IMG/VR virus record: IMGVR_UViG_3300045988_020586
Direction: 5' to 3' (one strand)
Length of the DNA: 64,000 nt
Source: a virus
The position numbers and the translations under genes are program-made. Positions 5,860 to 48,161 of the stretch are shown here, piece after piece (the stretch's first letter is position 1; every line of letters begins with the position of its first letter). The notes beneath the pieces were generated by a model. The model was given only the letters and a program-made list of their open reading frames with translations. It was not told where the DNA came from and did not search any database.

Positions 5860-6700
5860 CGGGAGGGTGTGGACGTGAGGGGAGTCGACAAAATCTTCAA
5901 GTTCATTGCAACTATTCCACTCTGCTCCACGTTATATTTATATGGAACAGATAAAGAAATATATGCAAAACAGAAAGTTAATAACTTTCGTTTGTGATTG
6001 TTGTGGAAAAGAAGCTCAAAAACCTCTTTCCGAATACAACAGAAACAAGAAACTTGGTAGGAAGAATTTTTGTAGTAGAAGTTGTGCAATTCGTTATGCT
6101 AATAAAAATAAATTACATACATTTACAGATAAATGTAGAGAACATCTTTTAAGTATTTGCAACAATCAAATAGACGAATATACCGATTTTAGATATATCC
6201 TTAGAAGTGTCTATAAAAGATTTAAAGAAGTAGATATAGATTTAGAGTATCTAAAACAACTTTGGGAGACACAAAAAGGAATTTGCCCTTATACTGGTAT
6301 AAAATTAAAGCTTCCAACATATAAAAGCCATAACTTCTATTTTGATTGTGCATCTTTAGACAGAATAGATTCTTCTAAAGGCTACGTTAAAGGAAATGTT
6401 CAATTCATATCATTACCTATAAATTATATGAAATCTACTAAATCAGATATTGAAATCAGACAATTTCTTAAACAAATTTCTTCTTACACTTCACATTTCT
6501 GCGAAGATGAGACTATCTCTTCACCTAAAGAGGTGTTGGGCGCTCGAGCTGGTAATTAAGAAGACTATACTTCTCCAGTAGTCGTTGCACTTTCTTGTGG
6601 TGTACCACAAGCTTAGCTCAGGGTTAGCATGAACAATACTAGCTTTGAGCTATTATTGTTTTTAGCCTTCCTTGAATTCACCCAATATGGGCTCGGTAAG
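5860..6700 (+). mobile_element. group I intron-like element carrying an HNH ORF; boundaries and host exons unresolved
   Basis: P7-like GAGACTA 6509-6515 and TAGTC 6579-6583, flanking hairpins CACCT-AAAG-AGGTG and AGAAG/CTTCT. P9-like CTTGTGG-TGTA-CCACAAG 6594-6611. Same layout as the two splicing-competent introns in this window. Confidence 0.35.
5942..6559 (+). CDS. HNH-family homing endonuclease
   Basis: Zn-ribbon-like CDCCGKE...CSRSC at the N-terminus. C-terminal ASLDRIDSSKGYVKGNVQFIS motif typical of phage HNH endonucleases. ATG at 5942 (the track ORF begins at 5906). No in-frame TAG. Confidence 0.75.
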   Translation: MEQIKKYMQNRKLITFVCDCCGKEAQKPLSEYNRNKKLGRKNFCSRSCAIRYANKNKLHTFTDKCREHLLSICNNQIDEYTDFRYILRSVYKRFKEVDIDLEYLKQLWETQKGICPYTGIKLKLPTYKSHNFYFDCASLDRIDSSKGYVKGNVQFISLPINYMKSTKSDIEIRQFLKQISSYTSHFCEDETISSPKEVLGARAGN

Positions 6701-6897
6701 AACCCCTGTCCAAACAGATTATTTCATACACACTGTACATTTGTTTTGTAAATGTCCTGATGATCAGTCAGAACATTTGATTTAAACCACTTTAGGTGCG
6801 TTCTAAGGCATTTTTGCGACACTTGTGGTTAATTACTCCACTCGGTGACATACTCTGCCTCAGAATGCATTAGAACATGGTTGAAAATATATAGGAA

Positions 6898-13253: not shown

Positions 13254-13370
13254 TGAGGTCTATTCGCGCTTTGAGTAATGAATCAGACTACACCATGATG
13301 CAACATGTGTAGTTTCGTCTAGGTCTCATCAGTGATGATTTTAGACTCTCCCTAGCTGAGTTTAAATAAA

Positions 13371-15042: not shown

Positions 15043-15462
15043 TTATTTTGCTATGTTGAAATCTTCGTTGTTTTTAGAATCATCTTCTGCATAATCTTCG
15101 CATTCTACTTCTTTTACAAGTATTTGTCTACCTCCCTTATGGCCCCTAGGAACATATCCCGATCCAAGCTGATCATGTATAATCTCTGTTACAGTCTTCT
15201 GTTTCTTAGGCTTTAAAGTATTTTGCATAGTAGGCGTAGAGTCTATCTCGCCATTCTCTACTATAGATTCGTAATCGGTATATAAAGGAGAACTTACATC
15301 CTCAAACTTCTTAAAGAAATCCTTTACTTCGCGCATGTATTTGTGACCTTCTCTCTCATATAATACCGAATCTATCCATGCGCCATCAAAATCGTTTTTA
15401 AATTTTCCAATTCCAAGGTATTTGTAGTCTTTACCTTTATATCTGTATATATAATCTTCCAT
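15043..15462 (-). CDS. hypothetical protein, paralogous N-terminal domain with 15516-15791
   Basis: 139 aa. YRYKGKDYKYLGIGKF...WIDSVLYE aligns by eye with IYIGTGQFQ...LVDTILYKYRG of the neighbour. Reminiscent of DUF1653-type domains (from memory, unverified). Confidence 0.65.
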   Translation of the reverse strand: MEDYIYRYKGKDYKYLGIGKFKNDFDGAWIDSVLYEREGHKYMREVKDFFKKFEDVSSPLYTDYESIVENGEIDSTPTMQNTLKPKKQKTVTEIIHDQLGSGYVPRGHKGGRQILVKEVECEDYAEDDSKNNEDFNIAK

Positions 15463-15515
15463 TACCTTGTCTCCTTATTAGCAATTTTTAACCTATTTAT
15501 CTATCTCTAGAAATA

Positions 15516-15791
15516 CTATTCTGCATCTGCAGTATTATGTTCGGCTTTATCTGGCTCAATACCAGGAGTGCATCCAGTGCCAATAATGTCTCCGATTCTA
15601 TCAAGTGTAGTAGATCTATCTGGCTCTGCGAGTCTTATAAACTCAGATGCTTCCATCATTTTGTATACTCCACGGTATTTGTAGAGTATGGTATCTACCA
15701 ATTTTCCAGAAGCTAATTGAAATTGACCGGTGCCGATATATATTACTTTTACATCACTATTTCTATTTAATATAAATCTATCATTCTCCAT
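15516..15791 (-). CDS. hypothetical protein, paralogue of 15043-15462 (terminates on TAG)
   Basis: 91-aa ORF; TAG stop (CTA 15516-15518). Confidence 0.65.
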   Translation of the reverse strand: MENDRFILNRNSDVKVIYIGTGQFQLASGKLVDTILYKYRGVYKMMEASEFIRLAEPDRSTTLDRIGDIIGTGCTPGIEPDKAEHNTADAE

Positions 15792-16134: not shown

Positions 16135-16398
16135 TTAAAATCTCCACCATCTAGTAGTCTCTTTCTTTAATTCATTGAGACACGTCTCATATTTGTCTTT
16201 CCAATAACTAGTGTGCTCTTCCTGGCGTGCCAACTGTCTCTGCAGCAGTGTTATCTGAGCATCTCTAGCTTCTAACGCACTCTCATTATCTATTGACTTA
16301 CTATTCTGTACAAGCTTTTCGTAATCTTTTCTATCTAGAATTACATAATCCCTAAGCTGTCTAATCAATTGAACTAAGTCTAATTCCTTCGTCTCCAT
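16135..16398 (-). CDS. hypothetical coiled-coil protein
   Basis: 87-aa ORF. Confidence 0.6.
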   Translation of the reverse strand: METKELDLVQLIRQLRDYVILDRKDYEKLVQNSKSIDNESALEARDAQITLLQRQLARQEEHTSYWKDKYETCLNELKKETTRWWRF

Positions 16399-16418
16399 AT
16401 ATAATATCCAATAACATT

Positions 16419-16649
16419 TTAGTTGTTTCGGGATAATCCGAGAACATCTTTATCATCTATTCTGCTATCCCCGAACACTTCTTTAAATTTGTAGAACTCT
16501 CCTTTTTCATCAAGCTGCAGCGCTAATTGTAATATCTGTCTCGTTGGTGCTGCTTCCTCTCCTAGATTTTCTAGTTCCTTCAGTAATGTCTGATACGCAT
16601 CCCTCTGTCCTGGATCCATCTTTTCCTGTCTCTTCATCTTCTGTGTCAT
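16419..16649 (-). CDS. hypothetical protein (overlaps upstream ORF by 140 nt)
   Basis: 76-aa ORF with a protein-like sequence (DAYQTLLKELENLGEEAAPTRQILQLALQL). Confidence 0.5.
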   Translation of the reverse strand: MTQKMKRQEKMDPGQRDAYQTLLKELENLGEEAAPTRQILQLALQLDEKGEFYKFKEVFGDSRIDDKDVLGLSRNN

Positions 16650-16935: not shown

Positions 16936-17223
16936 TTAAGCTGCGATCGTCTCATTTGCTTCGTTTAAAGCGTTTACAACTTCAGCTTTGGTAGTCTTTG
17001 TTTTAGACTGCTCAATAAGCTTTTGTACAAGTTCGTCCTTATGAGGATTACCTTTTTGTGCATACATGTGCATAAGGATTGCTGTAGCACTTGCAAACTC
17101 TCTAGAGTTTTTGTCAAGTGTGTCTATAAGTTCCTCAAGTTCTTCAATTGTATATTTTCCTGGCTTATGCAAGAACTTTCCATCTTTGTCGTACAGGTTA
17201 CTATTTTTGCTAATTTTTCCCAT
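16936..17223 (-). CDS. hypothetical protein
   Basis: 95-aa ORF, TAA stop. Confidence 0.65.
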   Translation of the reverse strand: MGKISKNSNLYDKDGKFLHKPGKYTIEELEELIDTLDKNSREFASATAILMHMYAQKGNPHKDELVQKLIEQSKTKTTKAEVVNALNEANETIAA

Positions 17224-17394
17224 TATTACTTACTCCTTTAAGTATTACCCAACCAGCTGTAACAGCTATTATTGGGATGATTAAAAATATAGTTATTATA
17301 TCAAATGGATTCATCATTGTCTGGTTCATAAAACCCTAATCTTCTTCCGTTTTTCTCGGCTCTTTCTATTATTTCCGCAGCTCTTAAAAAGTCT

Positions 17395-17850
17395 TTATCT
17401 TTTGCTATTTTGCTCAGCATGGGCTATGTATTTTGTGCACTCTTCCTCTATAATTTCACCATCGTCGTTACGTGTTAAATGTGTGTATTTCATCTTTGAT
17501 CTGTTGAATTTAAACGCTCTAAACGCCTTATCTCGCTCCTATTTGTCATCATATCTATGGATGTATTTCATCATTTGTGTAGCATTTACAGATCCTGCTA
17601 CCCCAAGATTACATAGGTTTTTAATAAAGCTCATAGCCCCGTCTTCTCCAAACTTATGCTTTAGCATACTATACTCTTTAAGGCTCTTCTAGAACCACTA
17701 ATTGTCTATATCGTATACTGGATCTTGCTCAACAATATATGCTATATTTATTGGCACACCGTGCACAAAGAAGTATTTGCACTACTATGTACAAGGTTTA
17801 TTTTGATATTGTAGAGATAAGAAGTCAGCGTAATATAGTACGGCGCTCAT
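17395..17850 (-). CDS. hypothetical 151-aa protein, readable only if TAG is a sense codon (5 in-frame TAG)
   Basis: ATG at 17850, TAA at 17395-17397, with no TAA or TGA in 151 codons of AT-rich sequence. Tandem TAG-TAG at 17782-17787. Sequence is protein-like (…FFVHGVPINIAYIVEQDPVYDIDN-Q-WF-Q-KSLKEYSMLKHKFGEDGAMSF…). Confidence 0.6.
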
Positions 17851-17861
17851 CTCAAACTAAT

Positions 17862-18257
17862 TCATACTTTACTTGCTGTTTTGTTTACACACTCTGTAAA
17901 GTATCCAATCAAGTATGCGAATACCTCGTTAGTATCTTCAGAGAGATTTATATGACACGATTCTAGTATATCTACAGCCGCATGAAATGACTCGTGAGCA
18001 AACGTGTTTACATCATTATAATCATTCCAGATCTTGTTTACTACTATGATTTCGCAATCTTCGTCCGTTGATTTATCATATGCTCCATTTACTGTATAAG
18101 CCGTATATTTAGAATATTCACCATCGCATATAGATGATTCATCTTGTCTAAATGCAAATCTTTTATCTATTACAGACTTATCTGGGTTAACTATAACGAA
18201 TAAACTAAACCCATATACTGTATTGTATTCGTCTATTATACACTTCTTTTTATCCAT
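17862..18257 (-). CDS. putative zinc metallopeptidase-like protein (HExxH)
   Basis: 131 aa with FAHESFHAAVDIL. First gene of the minus-strand module. Confidence 0.65.
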   Translation of the reverse strand: MDKKKCIIDEYNTVYGFSLFVIVNPDKSVIDKRFAFRQDESSICDGEYSKYTAYTVNGAYDKSTDEDCEIIVVNKIWNDYNDVNTFAHESFHAAVDILESCHINLSEDTNEVFAYLIGYFTECVNKTASKV

Positions 18258-18304
18258 ACTATTCTTATTAGTCTTACTATTATTGTTAAGCTTATATATA
18301 GCTC

Positions 18305-18358
18305 TACTATACTGTAATAGCTTATTATACTATATAGTCTTACTATACTGTAATAGCT
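18305..18358. repeat. two perfect 18-nt direct repeats TACTATACTGTAATAGCT in the divergent control region
   Basis: Copies at 18305-18322 and 18341-18358. The related CT(T)ACTAT occurs near 18273 and 18424. Confidence 0.7.
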
Positions 18359-18560
18359 GTACTACTAAAGTAGATCTCCTAAAGAGAATATATAAGAGAA
18401 AGGGTTCTTAGTCTGACTAACCCCTACTATCCCCCTAACGCAAAAAAGCTAAAAAAGTTGCATATTGAATAGAAAAGTGCAATTTATATAAAATTTTTAT
18501 GCAGTTTGCAACCATTCTTACAAAAGTTTACGTTATGACGGCGTAAAACAATTAAATTTA

Positions 18561-18987: not shown

Positions 18988-19419
18988 ATGGAAGAAGAGA
19001 AGATGATAGATCAGACTCAGCTGGCAGAGGACTTAAGCTCAAAGATAAAGTATGAGTTTAGACAGATGTTCTTGGTAAAGCCGCTTGAGCCTGTTAAAGT
19101 TAAAAAGAAGATCTCCGAACCTGTGGCTAAGGACACTAAGCCAAAGAAGGATAAGGATGGGATCGAAGCAGTTGATTACGATGATGTAAAGACAGAGATT
19201 AAGGAAGTTGATTCAGATTTCTCTAGAGCTGTTGTGCTTAAGTTGCCATATGAGTATACACACCCATACGACGATGAAAAGATTCAGCAGATGCCTATCA
19301 AGGTTGGTGATATTGTTATATACAGATCTGCTAGAGGAGCTATGTATTTCGACTTACTTAAAGATTCTCAACTTGTATCTCTTTACGATATTGTAGCAAC
19401 GGAGACAGTAGAGAAGTAA
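18988..19419 (+). CDS. hypothetical protein; C-terminal part faintly GroES/co-chaperonin-like
   Basis: 143 aa. IKVGDIVIYRSARGAMYFDLLKDSQLVSLYDIVA resembles the GroES C-terminal pattern (by eye only). Confidence 0.65.
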   Translation: MEEEKMIDQTQLAEDLSSKIKYEFRQMFLVKPLEPVKVKKKISEPVAKDTKPKKDKDGIEAVDYDDVKTEIKEVDSDFSRAVVLKLPYEYTHPYDDEKIQQMPIKVGDIVIYRSARGAMYFDLLKDSQLVSLYDIVATETVEK

Positions 19420-19649
19420 TGAATATAGATAAAGTTTGTAGATAGATCGGACGACAATTAAACGAAGATCCAGAACTAGTAAAGCAAATAGTAATGCATT
19501 AGTTCTAGTTTGTAGTTGATGTTATGAAAGATCCAGATGACACTAGAGATGTGTTAATAAACAAACTATTTAGATTCAAGCTTAAGAATAGATTTAAAGA
19601 TAATAAGAATAAACCATTAAGTCCATATGAAGAAGATAATAAACATTGA
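19419..19649 (+). CDS. small protein with 3 in-frame TAG
   Basis: TAATG overlap with the upstream gene. MNIDKVCR-Q-IGRQLNEDPELVKQIVMH-Q-F-Q-FVVDVMKDPDDTRDVLINKLFRFKLKNRF..., TGA stop at 19647-19649. In the standard code only a 41-aa C-terminal fragment is open. Confidence 0.5.
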
Positions 19650-20885: not shown

Positions 20886-20956
20886 CGCGGGATGGTGAAA
20901 TGGTATCACGTGTGGCTCATAACCATAGATTGCTAGTTCGACTCTAGCTCCCGCAA
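20886..20956 (+). tRNA. tRNA-Met-like (anticodon CAU), C1-A72 mismatch
   Basis: Acceptor CGCGGGA/TCCCGCA with an unpaired first position as in bacterial initiator tRNA. Anticodon arm TGTGG-CTCATAA-CCATA (CAT at 20918-20920). T-arm GCTAG-TTCGACT-CTAGC. Confidence 0.8.
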
Positions 20957-21174
20957 CACTGAGCTTCGATTGTGTGGTGTTCTACATATTTGGCCACCAG
21001 GAGCGAAATTGATATCAGAAAAATATGTCGGCTACAATGGTTTAAAGTGTAGCAATGTAGTTTTAGGCAGATAAAAAGCTCGGTAGCCTAAGGTGAGCTT
21101 CTACAATATTGCCCATTCGCGTACCAGCTAGCGCACCGGGCTCTTTTGTCCAATGAATAATTGAATATATAATA

Positions 21175-22077
21175 ATGGAAAATAAAATATATAAACTCTC
21201 AGACGAACAGTTTGTTGAGTTACTCAAGAAAAGTTCAACAATATCTGAAGTGTTGTTTAAACTTGGTTATACAGTTAAAGGAAACTCTTGGGGATATTCC
21301 CAAGTAAAAAGAAGAATGGATGATCTGAATTTAGACTATTCTATATTCAAAGGCAAATCAGCTGTTATAAAAACAACCAAGTTAAACAATGTAAAGAAGG
21401 AAGATATACTAAAGAAAAATTGTAGGCATCAGCGTACAGTACTAAGGAGATACGTTATTAAAAATAATTTAATCCCATACAAATGCGCGATATGCGGATG
21501 CACCGAATGGCAAGGAAAAACATTAAGCTTGGAACTTGATCATATAAATGGTGTAAACAATGACAATAGATTAGAAAACCTTAGGTTTTTATGCCCTAAT
21601 TGTCATAGTCAAACTTCAACGTATGGAAGCAGAAATCAGCAACTTAATAGTTCTGAATATGATATCCCAGACGATTTAAGAAAGATGGTTGAAGAGAAGT
21701 ATGATGAAGTTAAAAGTGTTAAAAGAGTATCATCAATACTTGGAATACGAAGATGCGTTGTTACAAAAATAGTTAATGAATCAGGTCAAAAACATTCTAA
21801 TCAAAAGTATATAATAAGGTACGATAAAGATTGGAATGAGCTCGCAAGATACGGTTCTCTCGTAGAAGCTGCCAAAGCTTTAATAGAAGCTAATGAAGTT
21901 AAAACAAAGCGAGTAAAGACTTGTACTAGAACTATAATGTACAATAAAGATAATTTTTGGTTGAACAGTCATTGGAAAATATTGGATGGTAGCGGGATAA
22001 TAAATAATCCGCTATTAGAACCTTCTCTAATTGACTCGGAAGACACTGTTGACGAGGCGCAAGCGAAAGCAGCGTGA
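21175..22077 (+). CDS. HNH homing endonuclease with C-terminal NUMOD/IENR-like DNA-binding region
   Basis: 300 aa with LELDHINGVNNDNRLENLRFLCPNCH. No in-frame TAG. The 3' end overlaps a group I core. Confidence 0.85.
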   Translation: MENKIYKLSDEQFVELLKKSSTISEVLFKLGYTVKGNSWGYSQVKRRMDDLNLDYSIFKGKSAVIKTTKLNNVKKEDILKKNCRHQRTVLRRYVIKNNLIPYKCAICGCTEWQGKTLSLELDHINGVNNDNRLENLRFLCPNCHSQTSTYGSRNQQLNSSEYDIPDDLRKMVEEKYDEVKSVKRVSSILGIRRCVVTKIVNESGQKHSNQKYIIRYDKDWNELARYGSLVEAAKALIEANEVKTKRVKTCTRTIMYNKDNFWLNSHWKILDGSGIINNPLLEPSLIDSEDTVDEAQAKAA

Positions 22078-22194: not shown

Positions 22195-22446
22195 ATGGAG
22201 TTAAAATTTAAGAGACTTGAGGACGAAGCGGTCCTCCCTATTCGTAGCACAGAAGGTGCTGCAGGAATTGATTTGACATGCATTAAGATTGATACAGCTC
22301 TTAATGAAGCAAATCAGCTAATGTTGGTTTACCATACAGGATTGGCAGTTGAGATTCCTGCCGGATATGTTGGTTTACTTATACCACGCTCTAGTATTTG
22401 GAAGAAATCATTATGGCTTACTGATAATGTTGGAGTGATTGACGCT
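22195..22446 (+). CDS. dut: dUTPase, exon 1
   Basis: Motif I AGIDL, motif II IPRSS, and the first half of motif III GVIDA. The standard-code ORF then runs into the intron and stops at 22467. Confidence 0.8.
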
Positions 22447-23375
22447 AGAATATTGATACGTTATTGAGTATCAATGCAACCAACTCTATTCGCATATCGT
22501 TATGATGATATAACTAAACACAAAATATCATGATAACAAAAATTTGCAAACAATGTGGTAAGGAATTTGATGTACCAGAATACAGAAAGGATGCTAAATA
22601 CTGCTGTGACGAATGTAAACACAAAGCACTGCATGGAGATTTAAATTGTGAGTGTGAGGTTTGTGGCAAGAAATTCCACTTAAAACCATACGCTCTTAAA
22701 AAGAGTAAACATCATACATGTAGCCGCGAGTGTTTAAACAAACTTAAAAGTACATTATATAAAGGTGAAGGAAATCATCAATATGGTCTAAAAGGCGATA
22801 AGAATTCATCTTTCAAAGGAAACGTAATCCTGCGTAAGAACAATGGACTAATCGAGAGAATGATCTACAATCCTAGACACCCATACGCTGATCGTAATGG
22901 TAGGATTAAGGAACACAGATTAATAGTTGAGCAGAATTACAAAATGTTTGACGATAAATACTTTGAAGTTATAAACGGAGAGCATTATTTAAAGAAGAAT
23001 GTAGATGTACATCACATTAACTTTAATCATAACGATAATAGAATAGAAAACCTAATTCCCTTGACTAGAGCGGAACATACAAAGCTTCATAACCAAAATG
23101 AAGTTATATACAGAAATGAGAAGGGAATGATAATTGGTGTCTTAAAACAGGGTGAATTGCTGGAAAAGCCTGAAGAGGTCAATCAGCAGCCAAGCTTGGG
23201 TAGTGATACCCTTGAAGGTTCAGAGACTAACAGCCGAGTCTTACGAGACAGTAATGCTGACACGAGTGCCCTGCCCGGAAACGGTGAAGATATAGTCCGA
23301 TCTACTGATAACAAAATAAACAGTAGAAATATAGAGATAAAGAGCTCTATAGATTAACAACTCCTAATTTTGTTG
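22447..23375 (+). mobile_element. group I intron in dUTPase gene (junctions +/- a few nt)
   Basis: Splits motif III GVIDA|DYRGEI. Exon 1 ends in T and the intron ends in G. Core strings CAGAGACTA 23221-23229 and GATATAGTCC 23289-23298; GNRA hairpin CCG-GAAA-CGG. Contains an HNH ORF. Confidence 0.7.
22530..23357 (+). CDS. intron-encoded HNH homing endonuclease
   Basis: 275 aa. Cys-rich N-terminus and VHHINFNHNDNRIENLIPLTRAEHTKLH. No in-frame TAG. Confidence 0.85.
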   Translation: MITKICKQCGKEFDVPEYRKDAKYCCDECKHKALHGDLNCECEVCGKKFHLKPYALKKSKHHTCSRECLNKLKSTLYKGEGNHQYGLKGDKNSSFKGNVILRKNNGLIERMIYNPRHPYADRNGRIKEHRLIVEQNYKMFDDKYFEVINGEHYLKKNVDVHHINFNHNDNRIENLIPLTRAEHTKLHNQNEVIYRNEKGMIIGVLKQGELLEKPEEVNQQPSLGSDTLEGSETNSRVLRDSNADTSALPGNGEDIVRSTDNKINSRNIEIKSSID

Positions 23376-23669
23376 GATTATAGAGGAGAGATTATAGCTA
23401 TAATGAAAGCCACAACAGATGTGGTTCCTGCTATTTATAAGCAGGGCGAGCGCTTCTGTCAGTTGGTCATAGTTCCGGTGCCAGAATACGAGGTTACAGA
23501 AGTGTCTGAGCTTTCTGATACAAAACGAGGCGAGAATGGCTTTGGTTCAACTGGTACCGATAATAAGGAAGTTAGCGCAGCTGCGGGAACTGAGGCACAG
23601 GCTAGCGAACAGCCACAGTCCGTACCAGAGCAAGCGGCGGCACAAGATGGTGCTGAGGTAGGTGAGTGA
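23376..23669 (+). CDS. dut: dUTPase, exon 2
   Basis: DYRGEI (motif III), GERFCQLV (motif IV), RGENGFGSTG (motif V), then an Ala/Gln/Glu-rich tail; TGA stop. Confidence 0.8.
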   Translation, partial: DYRGEIIAIMKATTDVVPAIYKQGERFCQLVIVPVPEYEVTEVSELSDTKRGENGFGSTGTDNKEVSAAAGTEAQASEQPQSVPEQAAAQDGAEVGE

Positions 23670-42802: not shown

Positions 42803-43951
42803 CCAGGCGCTATTTTGGCATTTGACAACGTAAACTTCCAGGTACGTGTAAACGGTACTCCATATCAGGATGGTAGCACATGGGTATATGAGTGCTACGT
42901 AGCAGAAGGCTTCCAGGGTTCTTATATTCCTTGTGAGTATTTGCTCCCAGGTCGTCAGGTAGATCGTATCGGTTCTGCATACGAGGAGTACAGTGATGAG
43001 GCAGATATCATCAACTATCAGACTCCATTTAAGATGCGTAATAGCTTGATGACTATGCGTCTTACTTACGATATCACCGGTGATGCTTACTCTACAGTAT
43101 TGGCTATCGCTTTGACTGATCCTGAGACAGGCAAGAAGTCTTATTTGTGGTCTGACTATCAGTATTGGAAGGCTCTTCGTGAGTGGAAGAAGAGAGAGGA
43201 GAAGCAGTTGCTGTTCGCTCACTCTAACCGTAATGCAGATGGTACTTATAATCTGAAGGGTACTAATGGTCGTTTCGTTCCAATCTCTGCAGGTTTGTTC
43301 GAGCAGATTGCTCCAGCTAACGTACGTTACTATACAAAGCTGACTACAGAGTTGTTTGAGGATTACCTGTTCGACCTCTGCTATAATATCATCGGTACTA
43401 ACGAGCGTAAGTTTGTTGCCTTGACTGGTGAGATGGGTATCCGTGAGTTCGACCGTATCTTGAAGGAGAAGGCAGCTAGCTTCAATATGATTGACACACA
43501 CTTCATTACAGGTTCTGGTCAGGATCTGAAGTTGGGTGGTCAGTTCACAACTTACACTATGACTAATGGTATTGAGTTGACAGTTAAGCGTTGCGCTATG
43601 TTTGATAACATGGAGATGTTCCGTCAGCTTCACCCATTGACAGGTAAGCCATTGATGTCTTACACATTCTTGTTCGTTGATCTTGGTCGTCGTGATGGTC
43701 AGGCTAACATCGTTAAGGTATGTCGTAAGGGTCGTGAGTTCGTACAGTGGTGTACTGGTGGTTCTGTATTGCCAAATGGTTATGCAAACAACATCAATAC
43801 TATGCGTTCTAACAGCCGTGATGGTTACCAGGTACACTTCCTTGGTGAAGAGGGTATCATGTTGAGAAACCCATTGTCATGTGGTATCTTGTACTGTGAT
43901 GCTGAAGACCAGGAGTCTATTGCAGTTGAGAATAGAGCAGCAGAGCTCTAA
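42803..43951 (+). CDS. major capsid protein, exon 2
   Basis: 382 codons with no in-frame TAG. Strong codon bias gives a 357-aa antisense shadow ORF. Position after the scaffold-like gene. Sequence resembles crAss-like MCPs from memory. Confidence 0.75.
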   Translation, partial: PGAILAFDNVNFQVRVNGTPYQDGSTWVYECYVAEGFQGSYIPCEYLLPGRQVDRIGSAYEEYSDEADIINYQTPFKMRNSLMTMRLTYDITGDAYSTVLAIALTDPETGKKSYLWSDYQYWKALREWKKREEKQLLFAHSNRNADGTYNLKGTNGRFVPISAGLFEQIAPANVRYYTKLTTELFEDYLFDLCYNIIGTNERKFVALTGEMGIREFDRILKEKAASFNMIDTHFITGSGQDLKLGGQFTTYTMTNGIELTVKRCAMFDNMEMFRQLHPLTGKPLMSYTFLFVDLGRRDGQANIVKVCRKGREFVQWCTGGSVLPNGYANNINTMRSNSRDGYQVHFLGEEGIMLRNPLSCGILYCDAEDQESIAVENRAAEL

Positions 43952-47036: not shown

Positions 47037-48161
47037 ATGATTACATATGTAAATACCGTATTGGTATCAAATAAGGGTGGTGATACACTCGCTACAAAGG
47101 AAGAGCTTGCAGGCAAGCAGAAGAAGGGTGATCTTAAAGAGTTGGTTGGTAAGTTCGTATTTATGAATTGCGACGCAGCTGCTCAGGATGGCTCAAATAT
47201 CGAGGATATTTATGCAGTTGATGAGAACTGCGATAGATTTAAGATTGGTGTTGTAACTAGTGATAGTTTCCAGAAGGCTGACAAGATGGGTAATGTAACA
47301 TACATCCCTGTTGTTAAGTGGTCTAATATCATCAATGCAGCAGACATTAAGTCTATTACAAAGCTCGATTATAAGGAGGATACAGAGGATACAATTTCAA
47401 TTGATTTCTCTACAATTCCTGCAGAGACTTTGGATATTCTTTCAGCAGGTGGTTGTCCTGTAGTACTTCGCCTTACTTTCAAGGATATGCCTATGCGTTA
47501 TCGTAAGTGGACTGAGTCTTATAGCTATGTAACAATGCCTGGCGATGGTATTCAGAATATTATGCAGGGCCTTGTTAAGGATATCGTACGTGCTTCTAAG
47601 CGTCAGCGTGTATACGCAAAGATTGATGGCACTAAGCTCGTGCTTGAGGCAATGAAGTATGACGATGATGAGCAGGCTGTAACAGAGAACGTTTATGCAA
47701 AGGTTCGCTTTGATGCAAATGCTTATTGGATGAATCCACAGGCTCCAGGTTGGGCGGCTAATAACAAGTATGACCTTGGTGTTAAGTTTGTTAAGAAGGA
47801 GGGTGTAACTTACCCTGCATCTGCAAAGCTTGTACGTGATCGCGAGCGTTCAGCATTTGACTATCAGGGTGTACTCCATCGTAGCTGCTGGTATGACCCA
47901 CAGCCTAATATGGTTACAAATATTGATAACCATTACGGTGGTATTACTATCGAGTTCGAGAACCAGTATCGTACAGCTGACGATCTCTGGCGTAGAACAA
48001 AGCAGACAGTAGAAATCTATGCTTCTAACAATGGTACCGAGATTGGTGCTGCAGAGATCGGTGATGGTCTCTTGGCTAAGTTTGGCAAGATGGTTGCTAC
48101 TCGTCAGAACATCGCTAACCCAGTTAGCAATTCAACTGCGTACGACGGTACAAAGTATTAA
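47037..48161 (+). CDS. abundant virion structural protein (possibly auxiliary capsid or decoration protein)
   Basis: 374-aa intact ORF with no TAG. MCP-like codon bias, followed by a strong terminator. The specific role is a guess. Confidence 0.8.
   Translation: MITYVNTVLVSNKGGDTLATKEELAGKQKKGDLKELVGKFVFMNCDAAAQDGSNIEDIYAVDENCDRFKIGVVTSDSFQKADKMGNVTYIPVVKWSNIINAADIKSITKLDYKEDTEDTISIDFSTIPAETLDILSAGGCPVVLRLTFKDMPMRYRKWTESYSYVTMPGDGIQNIMQGLVKDIVRASKRQRVYAKIDGTKLVLEAMKYDDDEQAVTENVYAKVRFDANAYWMNPQAPGWAANNKYDLGVKFVKKEGVTYPASAKLVRDRERSAFDYQGVLHRSCWYDPQPNMVTNIDNHYGGITIEFENQYRTADDLWRRTKQTVEIYASNNGTEIGAAEIGDGLLAKFGKMVATRQNIANPVSNSTAYDGTKY

What the first reader, a model, noticed from the sequence alone, without database searches (positions are those of the whole stretch)
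17395..17850. A TAG-rich gene embedded in the otherwise standard-code minus-strand module, next to the divergent control region
Seen: from ATG 17850 to TAA 17395-17397 there are 151 codons without TAA or TGA but with 5 TAGs, including a tandem TAG-TAG at codons 22-23 (17782-17787). In the standard code the product would be 21 aa, and the ORF track shows only an antisense artefact here (17402-17692). Its neighbours on the same strand use TAG as a stop or lack it. Inference: this gene is translatable only after the code switch, even though its transcription orientation is that of the early module. It could be a product deliberately delayed, such as a late regulator or an anti-host or lysis-timing factor. 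The small gene 19419-19649 (3 TAGs) is a similar outlier among TAG-free neighbours at the start of the plus-strand module.
Basis: partly seen in the sequence, partly recalled or inferred. Interest (0 to 1): 0.65.

Follow-up and report, generated by a model that had tools for sequence, protein, structure and literature searches.

The report
Amber-gated gene in crAss-like phage
A real, conserved 156-residue gene of a gut crAss-like phage carries six in-frame TAG "stop" codons that are read as glutamine, so it can be made only once the phage has changed the cell's reading of TAG, although it sits behind a TAG-free protease-like gene in the otherwise standard-code half of the genome; this is a tidy new example of a known trick.

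Summary
The ORF is a real gene, but it starts 15 nt further upstream: 17865 to 17395, minus strand, 156 codons, six TAGs. The window is a Suoliviridae (Burzaovirus-like) crAss-like phage that reads TAG as glutamine. RefSeq relatives already annotate the gene as a hypothetical protein.

- **Selection:** dN/dS is 0.04-0.15 and substitutions show third-position periodicity.
- **TAG is sense:** TAG swaps with CAA/CAG between relatives.
- **Family-wide trait:** all 82 loci and all 19 lineages keep at least one in-frame TAG, at differing positions. Flanking conserved genes are almost always TAG-free.
- **Preference:** the gene's TAG share of Gln codons exceeds that of nearby late ORFs in 15 of 18 lineages.
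- **Neighbours:** in 70 of 82 loci it follows a TAG-free zincin-like gene (invariant HExxH...E) at 0-9 nt, overlapping it (ATGA) in most loci, this window included.
- **Fold:** the confident model matches nothing solved. A sub-threshold Panacea (antitoxin) resemblance is only a lead.

Best reading: translation of this cistron is gated by the amber-to-Gln switch. This is the known recoding-as-timer principle applied inside an early-type operon. Timing and function are untested. No CUA suppressor tRNA lies in the window.

The parts
17395..17865 (-). Target gene: 156 codons plus TAA. In-frame TAG (read as Gln) at codons 3 (17859-17857), 27-28 (17787-17782), 56 (17700-17698), 59 (17691-17689) and 109 (17541-17539).
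   Evidence: The homologue is annotated in cr124_1 (YP_010113117.1) and cr7_1.
17862..18257 (-). Upstream cistron: a 131-aa TAG-free zincin-like protein (HESFH at residues 88-92, Glu111). Its TGA stop overlaps the target's ATG (ATGA).
   Evidence: invariant H88, E89, H92, E111; AF2 pLDDT 91.7, beta-sheet plus two helices; weak hits to DUF5700, M78, SprT-like; directly upstream of the target in 70 of 82 loci.
18258..18560 (.). Divergent intergenic region, 28% GC. It is almost invariant among relatives and contains the palindrome TTAGTC-N-GACTAA (18408-18420) and TAGTA-type repeats.
17301..17420 (-). Conserved 39-aa TAG-free small ORF in another frame. It starts inside the 3' end of the target. 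Conserved motif: L.KD..YL+A.E.I.RA.KN...NG.Y.
   Evidence: found in most lineages; called as a 29-aa gene in L085.
17198..17314 (-). Possible 34-aa hydrophobic micro-ORF (MNPFDIITIFLIIPIIAVTAGWVILKG...). It ends at TAG 17212-17210, or four codons later at TAA if TAG is read through.
   Evidence: Conserved in the Burzaovirus-like clade only.
19419..19649 (+).
   Evidence: TAG is present in 50 of 75 homologous loci.
20886..20957 (+). tRNA-Met (CAU), in the slot where relatives encode the amber suppressor tRNA (CUA).

Best explanation
17865..17395 (minus strand) is a real protein-coding gene of a TAG-to-Gln recoded Suoliviridae crAss-like phage. It is the second cistron of a conserved cassette that opens the leftward, mostly TAG-free gene array beside the divergent control region.

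The first cistron is a small HExxH...E zincin-like protein. It has no TAG and can be translated by the unmodified host machinery. The second cistron shares that transcript in all likelihood, because the two overlap at ATGA. Under the standard code it stops at codon 3. If ribosomes restart at Met6 they stop again at the tandem TAGs at codons 27-28. Full-length protein therefore needs six successive amber read-throughs, so its yield rises steeply with suppression efficiency. It appears only once TAG is efficiently decoded as Gln, later than its co-transcribed neighbours.

Comparative data indicate that this dependence is retained by selection rather than merely tolerated.

What the protein does is an inference held with low confidence (about 0.2). 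It may bind and neutralise or redirect the co-encoded early zincin, in the manner of a toxin-first, antitoxin-second pair.

Shown: the gene is real, TAG is a sense codon, TAG presence is family-wide, and the cassette has this anatomy.
Inferred: co-transcription, the delay, and the partner role.
For: Phage identity and recoding:
- The region is about 82% identical in nucleotides to cr124_1 and cr7_1 (Burzaovirus, Suoliviridae).
- Late plus-strand ORFs need TAG read-through.

The gene is real:
- 121 homologues were found, and 80 viral loci.
- dN/dS is 0.04-0.15 with third-position periodicity.
- The AF2 model is confident, pLDDT 91.5.

TAG encodes Gln:
- TAG and CAA swap between the window and its relatives.
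- TAG occurs in more than 30 alignment columns, many of which carry CAA/CAG in other sequences and the rest other variable residues.

The TAG trait is specific to this gene:
- At least one in-frame TAG in 82 of 82 loci and 19 of 19 lineages.
- Homology-mapped control genes are TAG-free: DUF7399 in 75 of 76 loci, the GroES-like gene in 72 of 76, the 107-aa gene in 42 of 43. The zincin is TAG-free in all but one locus where it was found.
- In the window, 6 of 11 Gln codons are TAG, against 7 of 97 in the rest of the module (p = 3e-4).
- The excess is in-frame only.

TAG is preferred beyond late-gene usage:
- The target's TAG share exceeds that of nearby late ORFs in 15 lineages and is lower in 3 (sign test p = 0.004; Fisher combined p = 4e-4).
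- The probability that every lineage keeps at least one TAG under late-like usage is 1.5e-4, treating lineages as independent.

Cassette anatomy:
- The zincin lies 0-9 nt upstream in 70 of 82 loci.
- Its H, E, H and E residues are invariant.

Partner idea:
- 13 of 34 family members give collinear sub-threshold hits to SocA_Panacea.
- Panacea toxin-antitoxin pairs are 78% toxin-first (PMC10440598).

Principle from the literature:
- Recoding has been proposed as a timer for late and lysis genes (Borges et al. preprint; Yutin et al. 2021, PMC7886860).
- Peptides from the sample fraction expected to hold early-infection phage proteins showed no recoded positions (PMC9523058).
Against: - There are no expression data for any Suoliviridae phage. 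The 'early' status of the module and co-transcription with the zincin are both inferred.
- The window holds no CUA suppressor tRNA. A preprint on a comparable 101-kb amber-recoded phage, with a matching set of tRNA species, found none in the whole genome. How and when TAG is decoded in this lineage is therefore unknown.
- In the window alone, the TAG share is not significantly above the late-gene pool (p = 0.2).
- The lineage tests assume independence, and they use only the late ORFs that lie within 10 kb.
- The zincin is displaced or absent in at least 4 lineages that still keep TAG in the target.
- In a distant standard-code relative the two genes are 5 kb apart, on opposite strands. This weakens the obligate-pair model.
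- The Panacea link is below Pfam's threshold. A profile search of 1.84 billion proteins returned only 87 proteins, none checked as a recognisable PanA; the 8 distant full-length ones scanned gave at most sub-threshold Panacea hits.
Confidence: 0.55

Rival explanations
1. Passive tolerance. The protein is needed only late. Nothing selects against in-frame TAG, so TAGs drift in as synonymous Gln codons. The gating is a by-product, not a device.
For: - The window's TAG share (55%) does not differ significantly from the late-gene pool of 38%.
- Eight of 19 lineages carry only one TAG.
- TAG positions turn over freely.
Against: - The target's TAG share is higher than that of nearby late ORFs in 15 of 18 lineages.
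- No locus among 82 has lost every TAG, although the per-lineage expectation of zero TAGs is mostly 10-86% under late-like usage.
- TAG at codon 3 is kept in 29 of 30 sequences of the Burzaovirus clade.
Confidence: 0.25
2. Dose control rather than timing. Partial read-through keeps the protein at a very low level throughout infection, relative to the upstream zincin. This sets a stoichiometry, not a delay.
For: - Six serial TAGs multiply read-through losses (sequence).
- The ATGA overlap would otherwise tend to give comparable translation of the two cistrons (inference).
Against: Lineages with a single TAG would achieve only mild attenuation, yet they still keep that TAG. Nothing here shows leaky suppression early in infection.
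Confidence: 0.1
3. Cis-acting polarity gate. Premature termination in the TAG-rich ORF uncouples translation from transcription. That lowers expression of the downstream genes until suppression begins. The peptide itself would matter less.
For: The ORF lies second in a long same-strand array, and further small ORFs overlap it or follow it closely.
Against: - The protein sequence is strongly conserved (dN/dS 0.04-0.15; 14 invariant residues; a confident fold).
- The downstream genes are TAG-free, which is pointless if they were silenced together with the target.
Confidence: 0.05
4. Not a gene: either a chance ORF or pseudogene, or the antisense ORF 17402-17692 is the real gene.
For: Chance ORFs of this length under TAA/TGA-only stops are expected about 2.75 times per 64 kb.
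Against: - The frame is conserved in 82 loci down to about 42% identity.
- Substitutions show codon periodicity and dN/dS is low.
- The AF2 model built from the family alignment reaches pLDDT 91.5.
Confidence: 0.01

Closest known systems
Stop-codon recoding as a translational timer in code-15 crAss-like phages (Ivanova 2014; Yutin 2021, PMC7886860; Borges et al., bioRxiv 10.1101/2021.08.26.457843; Peters 2022, PMC9523058)
   Same: - In-frame TAG is read as Gln.
- The replication/early block is TAG-free and the late block TAG-rich.
- In relatives the suppressor tRNA sits at the boundary between the modules.
- Genes that prefer TAG are proposed to be held back until the code switch.
   Different: - This gated gene is not structural or lytic and does not lie in the late block. 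It is the second cistron of an operon-like pair in the TAG-free array.
- The window's lineage shows no CUA tRNA.
- Borges et al. list a fourth TAG-preferring crAss family 'of unknown function'. I could not tell whether it is this family.
Recoded homing-endonuclease gene inside an early gene of Agate phages (Borges et al.)
   Same: A gene rich in recoded stops is embedded in an otherwise standard-code early region, and is argued to be kept silent until late.
   Different: That case is a selfish intron ORF using TGA as Trp. This one is a conserved core gene of the family using TAG as Gln.
RefSeq hypothetical proteins YP_010113117.1 (cr124_1) and YP_010112737.1 (cr7_1)
   Same: Orthologues at 85-86% amino-acid identity. 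They have the same length, the same position behind the zincin gene, and 6 TAGs.
   Different: They carry no functional annotation, and the records do not remark on the TAG anomaly.
PanA/Panacea (DUF4065, PF13274) antitoxins of PanAT modules (PMC8832971, PMC10440598)
   Same: - A small soluble protein encoded directly after a putative effector, with overlapping cistrons.
- The N-terminal ~70 residues align collinearly with positions 3-73 of the Panacea profile in 13 of 34 members.
- Toxin-first order is typical of PanAT pairs.
   Different: - Scores are 13-18.6 bits against a gathering score of 25.7.
- No Panacea-containing protein was identified among the 87 profile-search hits.
- No toxicity or neutralisation data exist.
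- The pairing is not obligatory.
Minimal zincins: ImmA/IrrE (M78), SprT-like, DUF5700, minigluzincins (comparison for the upstream gene)
   Same: HExxH plus a Glu 19 residues downstream. The predicted fold is a beta-sheet followed by an active-site helix and a second helix carrying the Glu.
   Different: - All Pfam hits are below threshold.
- There is no significant PDB fold match.
- There is no HTH partner as in ImmA/ImmR.

Membership tests
Code-15 (TAG to Gln) recoded phage gene | In-frame TAG falls at positions where orthologues carry CAA/CAG, and the frame is under purifying selection. | tested here: met
Code-15 (TAG to Gln) recoded phage gene | The genome's conserved late genes are intact only when TAG is read through. 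| tested here: met
   Annotated relatives.
Code-15 (TAG to Gln) recoded phage gene | The phage encodes a suppressor tRNA with a CUA anticodon. | tested here: not met
   None is found in the 64-kb window by ARAGORN or Rfam. Relatives carry one about 3 kb away. The rest of the genome was not available. A similar phage is reported to have none.
TAG-preferring ('preferentially recoded') gene families, in the sense of Borges et al. | TAG is used for Gln more often than in the genome's other recoded genes. | tested here: inconclusive
   In the window the share is 55% against 38%, p = 0.2. Across lineages it is higher in 15 and lower in 3, combined p = 4e-4, but the lineages are not independent.
Panacea / PanA antitoxin (PF13274) | A match to the Pfam model at or above the gathering score. 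| tested here: not met
   The window protein gives no hit. Relatives score 13-18.6 bits against 25.7.
Panacea / PanA antitoxin (PF13274) | A conserved two-gene module with an adjacent putative toxin. | tested here: inconclusive
   The zincin is adjacent in 70 of 82 loci and overlaps in most. It is separated or absent in at least 4 lineages and in L087.
Panacea / PanA antitoxin (PF13274) | The partner is toxic and is neutralised by the antitoxin. | not testable with these tools
   Needs expression assays.
Zincin / gluzincin metallopeptidase (upstream gene) | An HExxH motif plus a downstream Glu as third ligand, conserved across the family. | tested here: met
   H88, E89, H92 and E111 are invariant in 43 sequences.
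Zincin / gluzincin metallopeptidase (upstream gene) | A significant sequence or fold match to a curated peptidase family. | tested here: not met
   Pfam hits have E values of 0.004 or weaker and fall below the cut-offs. The best Foldseek PDB match has E = 0.9.

The most novel reading that the evidence does not exclude
The cassette is a 'code-gated' effector-neutraliser pair. An early zincin acts on a host or phage target as soon as the operon is transcribed. Its Panacea-like partner sits on the same mRNA but is unreadable until amber codons become glutamine. When it appears, it switches the zincin off or retargets it. The genetic-code switch would then serve as an intra-operon timer, in effect a toxin-antitoxin-like module whose antitoxin is controlled by codon reassignment.
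Probability: 0.15. Interest if true: 0.8.

Novelty: new member of a known kind. Interest (0 to 1): 0.45.

Why it matters
Stop-codon recoding in gut phages is thought to act as a clock for late and lysis genes, but direct tests are scarce. This family offers a compact test case.

- Two overlapping cistrons, probably on one transcript, differ only in their need for amber decoding.
- The TAG requirement is kept in every lineage examined.

Reporter fusions, or TAG-to-CAA swaps, in this pair would show whether recoding really sets timing. They could also reveal what an early zincin does in the most abundant group of human gut viruses.

The case also shows that 'standard-code' blocks of recoded phages can hide genes that code-11 gene callers fragment. 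Many database entries for this family are 30-120-aa pieces.

Tried and rejected
- **Family scans of the target:** Pfam, PHROGs, NCBIfam and PADLOC gave nothing at threshold.
- **PDB sequence-profile search:** only chance hits, E >= 0.2.
- **Foldseek, target model:** no match against PDB or BFVD. The single E = 0.003 hit is a 32-residue fragment at 81% identity to the query, probably of the same family.
- **Foldseek, zincin model:** nothing significant against PDB.
- **Profile search of 1.84 billion representatives:** 87 proteins, many of them short fragments, and no established link to Panacea.
- **Promoter and terminator scan around the gene:** no excess over shuffled sequence.
- **Rfam, gene and control region (E-value threshold):** nothing.
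- **Rfam, after the tRNA:** nothing beyond the tRNA itself.
- **DNA-level TAG enrichment as an explanation:** rejected, because out-of-frame TAG density equals that of the neighbours.
- **Antisense ORF 17402-17692 as the real gene:** rejected, given the periodicity and conservation of the minus-strand frame.
- **Early anti-defence role for a Panacea-like protein:** considered unlikely, because TAG gating would delay it.
- **Identity of Borges et al.'s fourth 'unknown function' TAG-preferring family:** could not be determined from the preprint text. The published version was not found in the library.
I used the 89%-identical P0002 as the lead sequence instead.

Full report
**Observation.** It has 151 sense positions, no TAA or TGA, five TAGs including the tandem pair at 17787-17782, and a TAA stop at 17397-17395. 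Under the standard code the only ORF listed there is the antisense 17402..17692. Length alone does not prove a gene. First-order Markov simulations of the window give about 2.75 ORFs of at least 150 codons free of TAA/TGA per 64 kb. The case therefore rests on comparison with other genomes.

**Which genome this is.** The region 15-21 kb is about 82% identical in nucleotides to the crAss-like phages cr124_1 and cr7_1 (Crassvirales; Suoliviridae; Oafivirinae; Burzaovirus). Reading through TAG nearly doubles the long-ORF content of the window. The plus-strand ORFs from about 23.7 kb onward carry up to 41 in-frame TAGs each. This is the known TAG-to-Gln recoding of many Beta, Delta and Zeta crAss-like phages, which is mostly confined to late genes (PMC7886860; Borges et al. 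preprint).

**The gene is real and already annotated in relatives.**
- cr124_1 and cr7_1 carry a 471-nt CDS at the same place (YP_010113117.1, YP_010112737.1). It starts at an ATG that overlaps the TGA of the upstream gene.
- In the window that start is ATG 17865.
- The gene is therefore 156 codons with six TAGs, at codons 3, 27, 28, 56, 59 and 109.
- A protein search found 121 homologues, down to about 42% identity. A scan of viral contigs gave 80 loci.
- Pairwise dN/dS is 0.04-0.15. Differences concentrate at third codon positions, for example 12/5/45.

**TAG is a sense codon here.** Between the window and cr124_1/cr7_1, TAG and CAA exchange at three codons, and TAG exchanges with GAA at a fourth. 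Across 77 unique sequences TAG occurs in more than 30 alignment columns. At many of these, other sequences carry CAA or CAG; the rest are variable positions with other residues.

**How unusual the TAG load is.**
- Window: the target has 6 TAG, 5 CAA and 0 CAG (55% TAG; 3.85 TAG per 100 codons).
- Window: the remaining minus-strand genes pool to 7 TAG among 97 Gln codons (7%; Fisher p = 3e-4).
- Window: the late genes pool to 38%.
- Out-of-frame TAG density in the target equals that of its neighbours. The difference is therefore specifically the absence of in-frame TAG avoidance.
- In the annotated cr124_1 genome, 34 of the 43 genes in this strand block have no TAG, eight have 1-2, and this gene has six.
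- Family-wide, all 82 loci and all 19 lineages (clusters at 80% identity) keep at least one in-frame TAG, at positions that differ between lineages.
- Conserved flanking genes, mapped by homology, are almost always TAG-free. The counts are DUF7399 75 of 76, GroES-like 72 of 76, the 107-aa gene 42 of 43, and the upstream zincin in all but one locus where it was found.
- The target's TAG share exceeds that of the late ORFs available in the same locus in 15 lineages and is lower in 3 (sign test p = 0.004; Fisher combined p = 4e-4).
- Under late-like usage, the chance that every lineage keeps at least one TAG is 1.5e-4.

Those last tests treat lineages as independent and use only late ORFs within 10 kb. 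They are indicative, not conclusive. They nevertheless favour selection for TAG over simple tolerance.

**Anatomy of the neighbourhood.**
- *Upstream gene, 17862-18257 (131 aa, TAG-free).* H88, E89, H92 and E111 are invariant in 43 diverse homologues. This is the HExxH plus Glu signature of gluzincins. A confident model (pLDDT 91.7) shows a beta-sheet followed by two long helices that carry these residues. Pfam gives only sub-threshold hits to zincin families: DUF5700, M78/ImmA-IrrE, SprT-like. Foldseek against the PDB gives nothing significant.
- *Linkage.* The zincin gene ends 0-9 nt before the target, with the ATGA overlap in most loci, in 70 of 82 loci. In about ten loci it is displaced or not found.
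- *Downstream small ORFs.* A conserved 39-aa ORF in another frame (17420-17301) starts inside the target's 3' end and recurs in most lineages. A short hydrophobic ORF follows in the Burzaovirus-like clade.
- *Control region.* The 303-nt divergent intergenic region (18258-18560, 28% GC) is almost invariant among relatives whose coding sequences differ by 10-20%.

**What the protein is.**
- The AF2 model from the family alignment is confident (pLDDT 91.5, alpha/beta). It has no significant match in the PDB or BFVD.
- No Pfam, PHROG, NCBIfam or PADLOC family reaches threshold.
- Thirteen of 34 family members, and some more distant relatives, give collinear but sub-threshold matches to SocA_Panacea. 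Residues about 8-74 align to profile positions 3-73, at 13-18.6 bits against a cut-off of 25.7.
- A profile search of 1.84 billion representative proteins found only 87 relatives. Many are 30-120-aa fragments, as expected where contigs were called with the standard code. None was identified as a Panacea-containing protein.
- In phage GenBank records, the family occurs in eight uncultured crAss-like or related genomes. The two whose taxonomy I retrieved are Suoliviridae, and all eight annotate it as 'hypothetical protein'.
- In a distant relative that uses TAG as a stop (L087), the homologue has no TAG and lies on the DUF7399 strand. A zincin homologue sits 5 kb away. The protein's function therefore predates recoding, and its pairing with the zincin is frequent but not obligatory.

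**The code-switch machinery.** In cr124_1, cr7_1 and many other relatives, a tRNA with anticodon CUA lies about 3 kb away. It sits at the end of the TAG-free rightward small-gene module, just before the first TAG-bearing genes. In the window and its closest relatives that slot holds only tRNA-Met(CAU). No CUA tRNA is found anywhere in the 64 kb. A 2026 preprint on a 101-kb amber-recoded Crassvirales phage of Segatella copri reports the tRNA species seen in the window (two Met, one Lys) plus one Ile, and no suppressor. How TAG is decoded in this lineage therefore remains open.

**Most likely mechanism.**
- The zincin and the target are probably co-transcribed from the conserved divergent region. 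This is inferred from the overlap.
- Host ribosomes can make the zincin at once.
- On the target they stop at codon 3. If they restart at Met6, they stop again at the tandem TAGs. Full-length product needs six read-throughs.
- Synthesis is therefore conditional on efficient amber decoding and depends on it steeply. This is the recoding-as-timer idea of Borges et al., applied to one cistron inside a TAG-free operon.

I rate the core claims at about 0.55. These are that the gene is real, that TAG encodes Gln, and that the gating is retained by selection. The role of the product is an inference at about 0.2. It may bind, inhibit or retarget the early zincin. This rests on the toxin-first bicistron layout typical of Panacea modules (PMC10440598) and on the weak Panacea signal.

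Rivals:
- passive tolerance in a late-acting gene (0.25);
- dose control (0.1);
- a cis polarity gate (0.05);
- not a gene (0.01).

**Comparison with what is known, and novelty.** The principle is established in the literature. An analogous recoded ORF inside an early gene has been described (the Agate intron endonuclease). This gene is already a RefSeq CDS.

Apparently new are three points:
- the family-wide, seemingly selected retention of TAG in this particular gene;
- its coupling to a TAG-free zincin;
- its position as the second gene beside the control region.

Borges et al. mention a fourth TAG-preferring crAss family of unknown function. I could not establish whether it is this family. 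I therefore classify the finding as a new member of a known kind, of moderate interest.

The gene 19419-19649 is a conserved 76-aa gene with three TAGs. Its TAGs are present in 50 of 75 loci, so the trait is weaker than for the target.

**Limits.**
- No transcript or protein data were available.
- About 38 kb of the genome lies outside the window.
- Neighbour gene sets in the loci came from my own ORF tiling, which can only inflate neighbour TAG counts.
- The statistical tests ignore shared ancestry.

Noticed in passing
window 16298-16510 (-): A second TAG-rich small ORF: 70 codons with 5 TAGs, ending ...TEQ(TAG)-TAA. It is conserved in the Burzaovirus-like clade, with in-frame insertions of 1-21 codons. 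It overlaps the TAG-free ORF 16419-16649 in another frame.
   Followed up: partly
window 17301-17420 (-); also L085:10485-10574 and most lineage representatives: A conserved 29-42-aa ORF in a different frame that starts inside the 3' end of the target. It reads MLSKIAKDKDFLRAAEIIERAEKNGRRLGFYEPDNDESI in the window, and the motif RA.KN...NG.Y recurs across lineages. One database protein (P0001) fuses it to the target through a 1-nt difference.
   Followed up: partly
window 17198-17314 (-): A 34-aa hydrophobic micro-ORF, a possible membrane peptide. Its first stop is TAG, followed by CAA AAA TAG TAA, so its end barely changes between the two codes.
   Followed up: no
window 20886-21020 (+); L001:7431-7502; loci: The tRNA slot after the rightward small-gene module holds a CUA suppressor in many relatives, but only tRNA-Met(CAU) here. 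About 60 nt directly 3' of the tRNA (CTGAGCTTCGAT.GTGTGGTGTTCTACATATTTGGCCACCAGGAGCGAAATTGATATCAG) are conserved in L004, L005 and, partly, L022. Theta (minimal HDV-like) ribozymes are reported next to phage tRNA-Met and tRNA-Sup (bioRxiv 10.1101/2023.06.13.544163), but Rfam gave no hit here.
   Followed up: partly
L004:7106-7178, L010:7167-7241, L013:6836-6908, L022:7061-7134, L068:6569-6641: ARAGORN reports tRNA-like genes with anticodon loops that are not 7 nt long (2- or 4-base 'anticodons') beside the tRNA-Met/Sup slot in several relatives.
   Followed up: no
window 22195-23669 (+), 21175-22077 (+): The dUTPase gene appears to be split (22195-22467 and 23403-23669) by a group I intron (Rfam hit 23077-23318). 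The intron carries a 275-aa HNH-type ORF (22530-23357). A further 300-aa HNH-like ORF lies just upstream. Both endonuclease ORFs are TAG-free.
   Followed up: no
window 13281-13362 (-), 6489-6781 (-): A RAGATH-1 hammerhead ribozyme (71.9 bits) and a second group I intron (81 bits) lie in the minus-strand module.
   Followed up: no
window 18258-18560: The divergent intergenic region is nearly invariant among relatives whose genes differ by 10-20%. It contains the palindrome TTAGTCTGACTAA (18408-18420), a G-rich block and repeated TATAGTA/TAGTAG motifs. It may be a promoter or operator, an origin, or a structured leader.
   Followed up: partly
window 15462-15791 (-): This gene has three TAGs, all within its last 18 codons. 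The standard code would give a 91-aa product and read-through a 109-aa one. The cr124_1 orthologue is 109 aa with no TAG.
   Followed up: partly
window 43034-43951, 47037-48161 (+); cr124_1 63149-64684, 67776-68906: Some long late ORFs, including the major head protein in cr124_1, contain no TAG and no CAA. They encode Gln only as CAG, unlike their TAG-rich neighbours.
   Followed up: no
L063:9600-10001: One relative has TAG in place of the catalytic Glu codon of the zincin (HqAMH instead of HEAMH). This could be a sequencing error, an inactive allele, or a gated or altered active site.
   Followed up: no
L087 (ENA ERZ4240422 NODE_3988): A distant relative uses TAG as a true stop in three neighbouring genes. 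It encodes a TAG-free homologue of the target at the head of the DUF7399 module. Its zincin homologue has Lys in place of the third-ligand Glu.
   Followed up: partly
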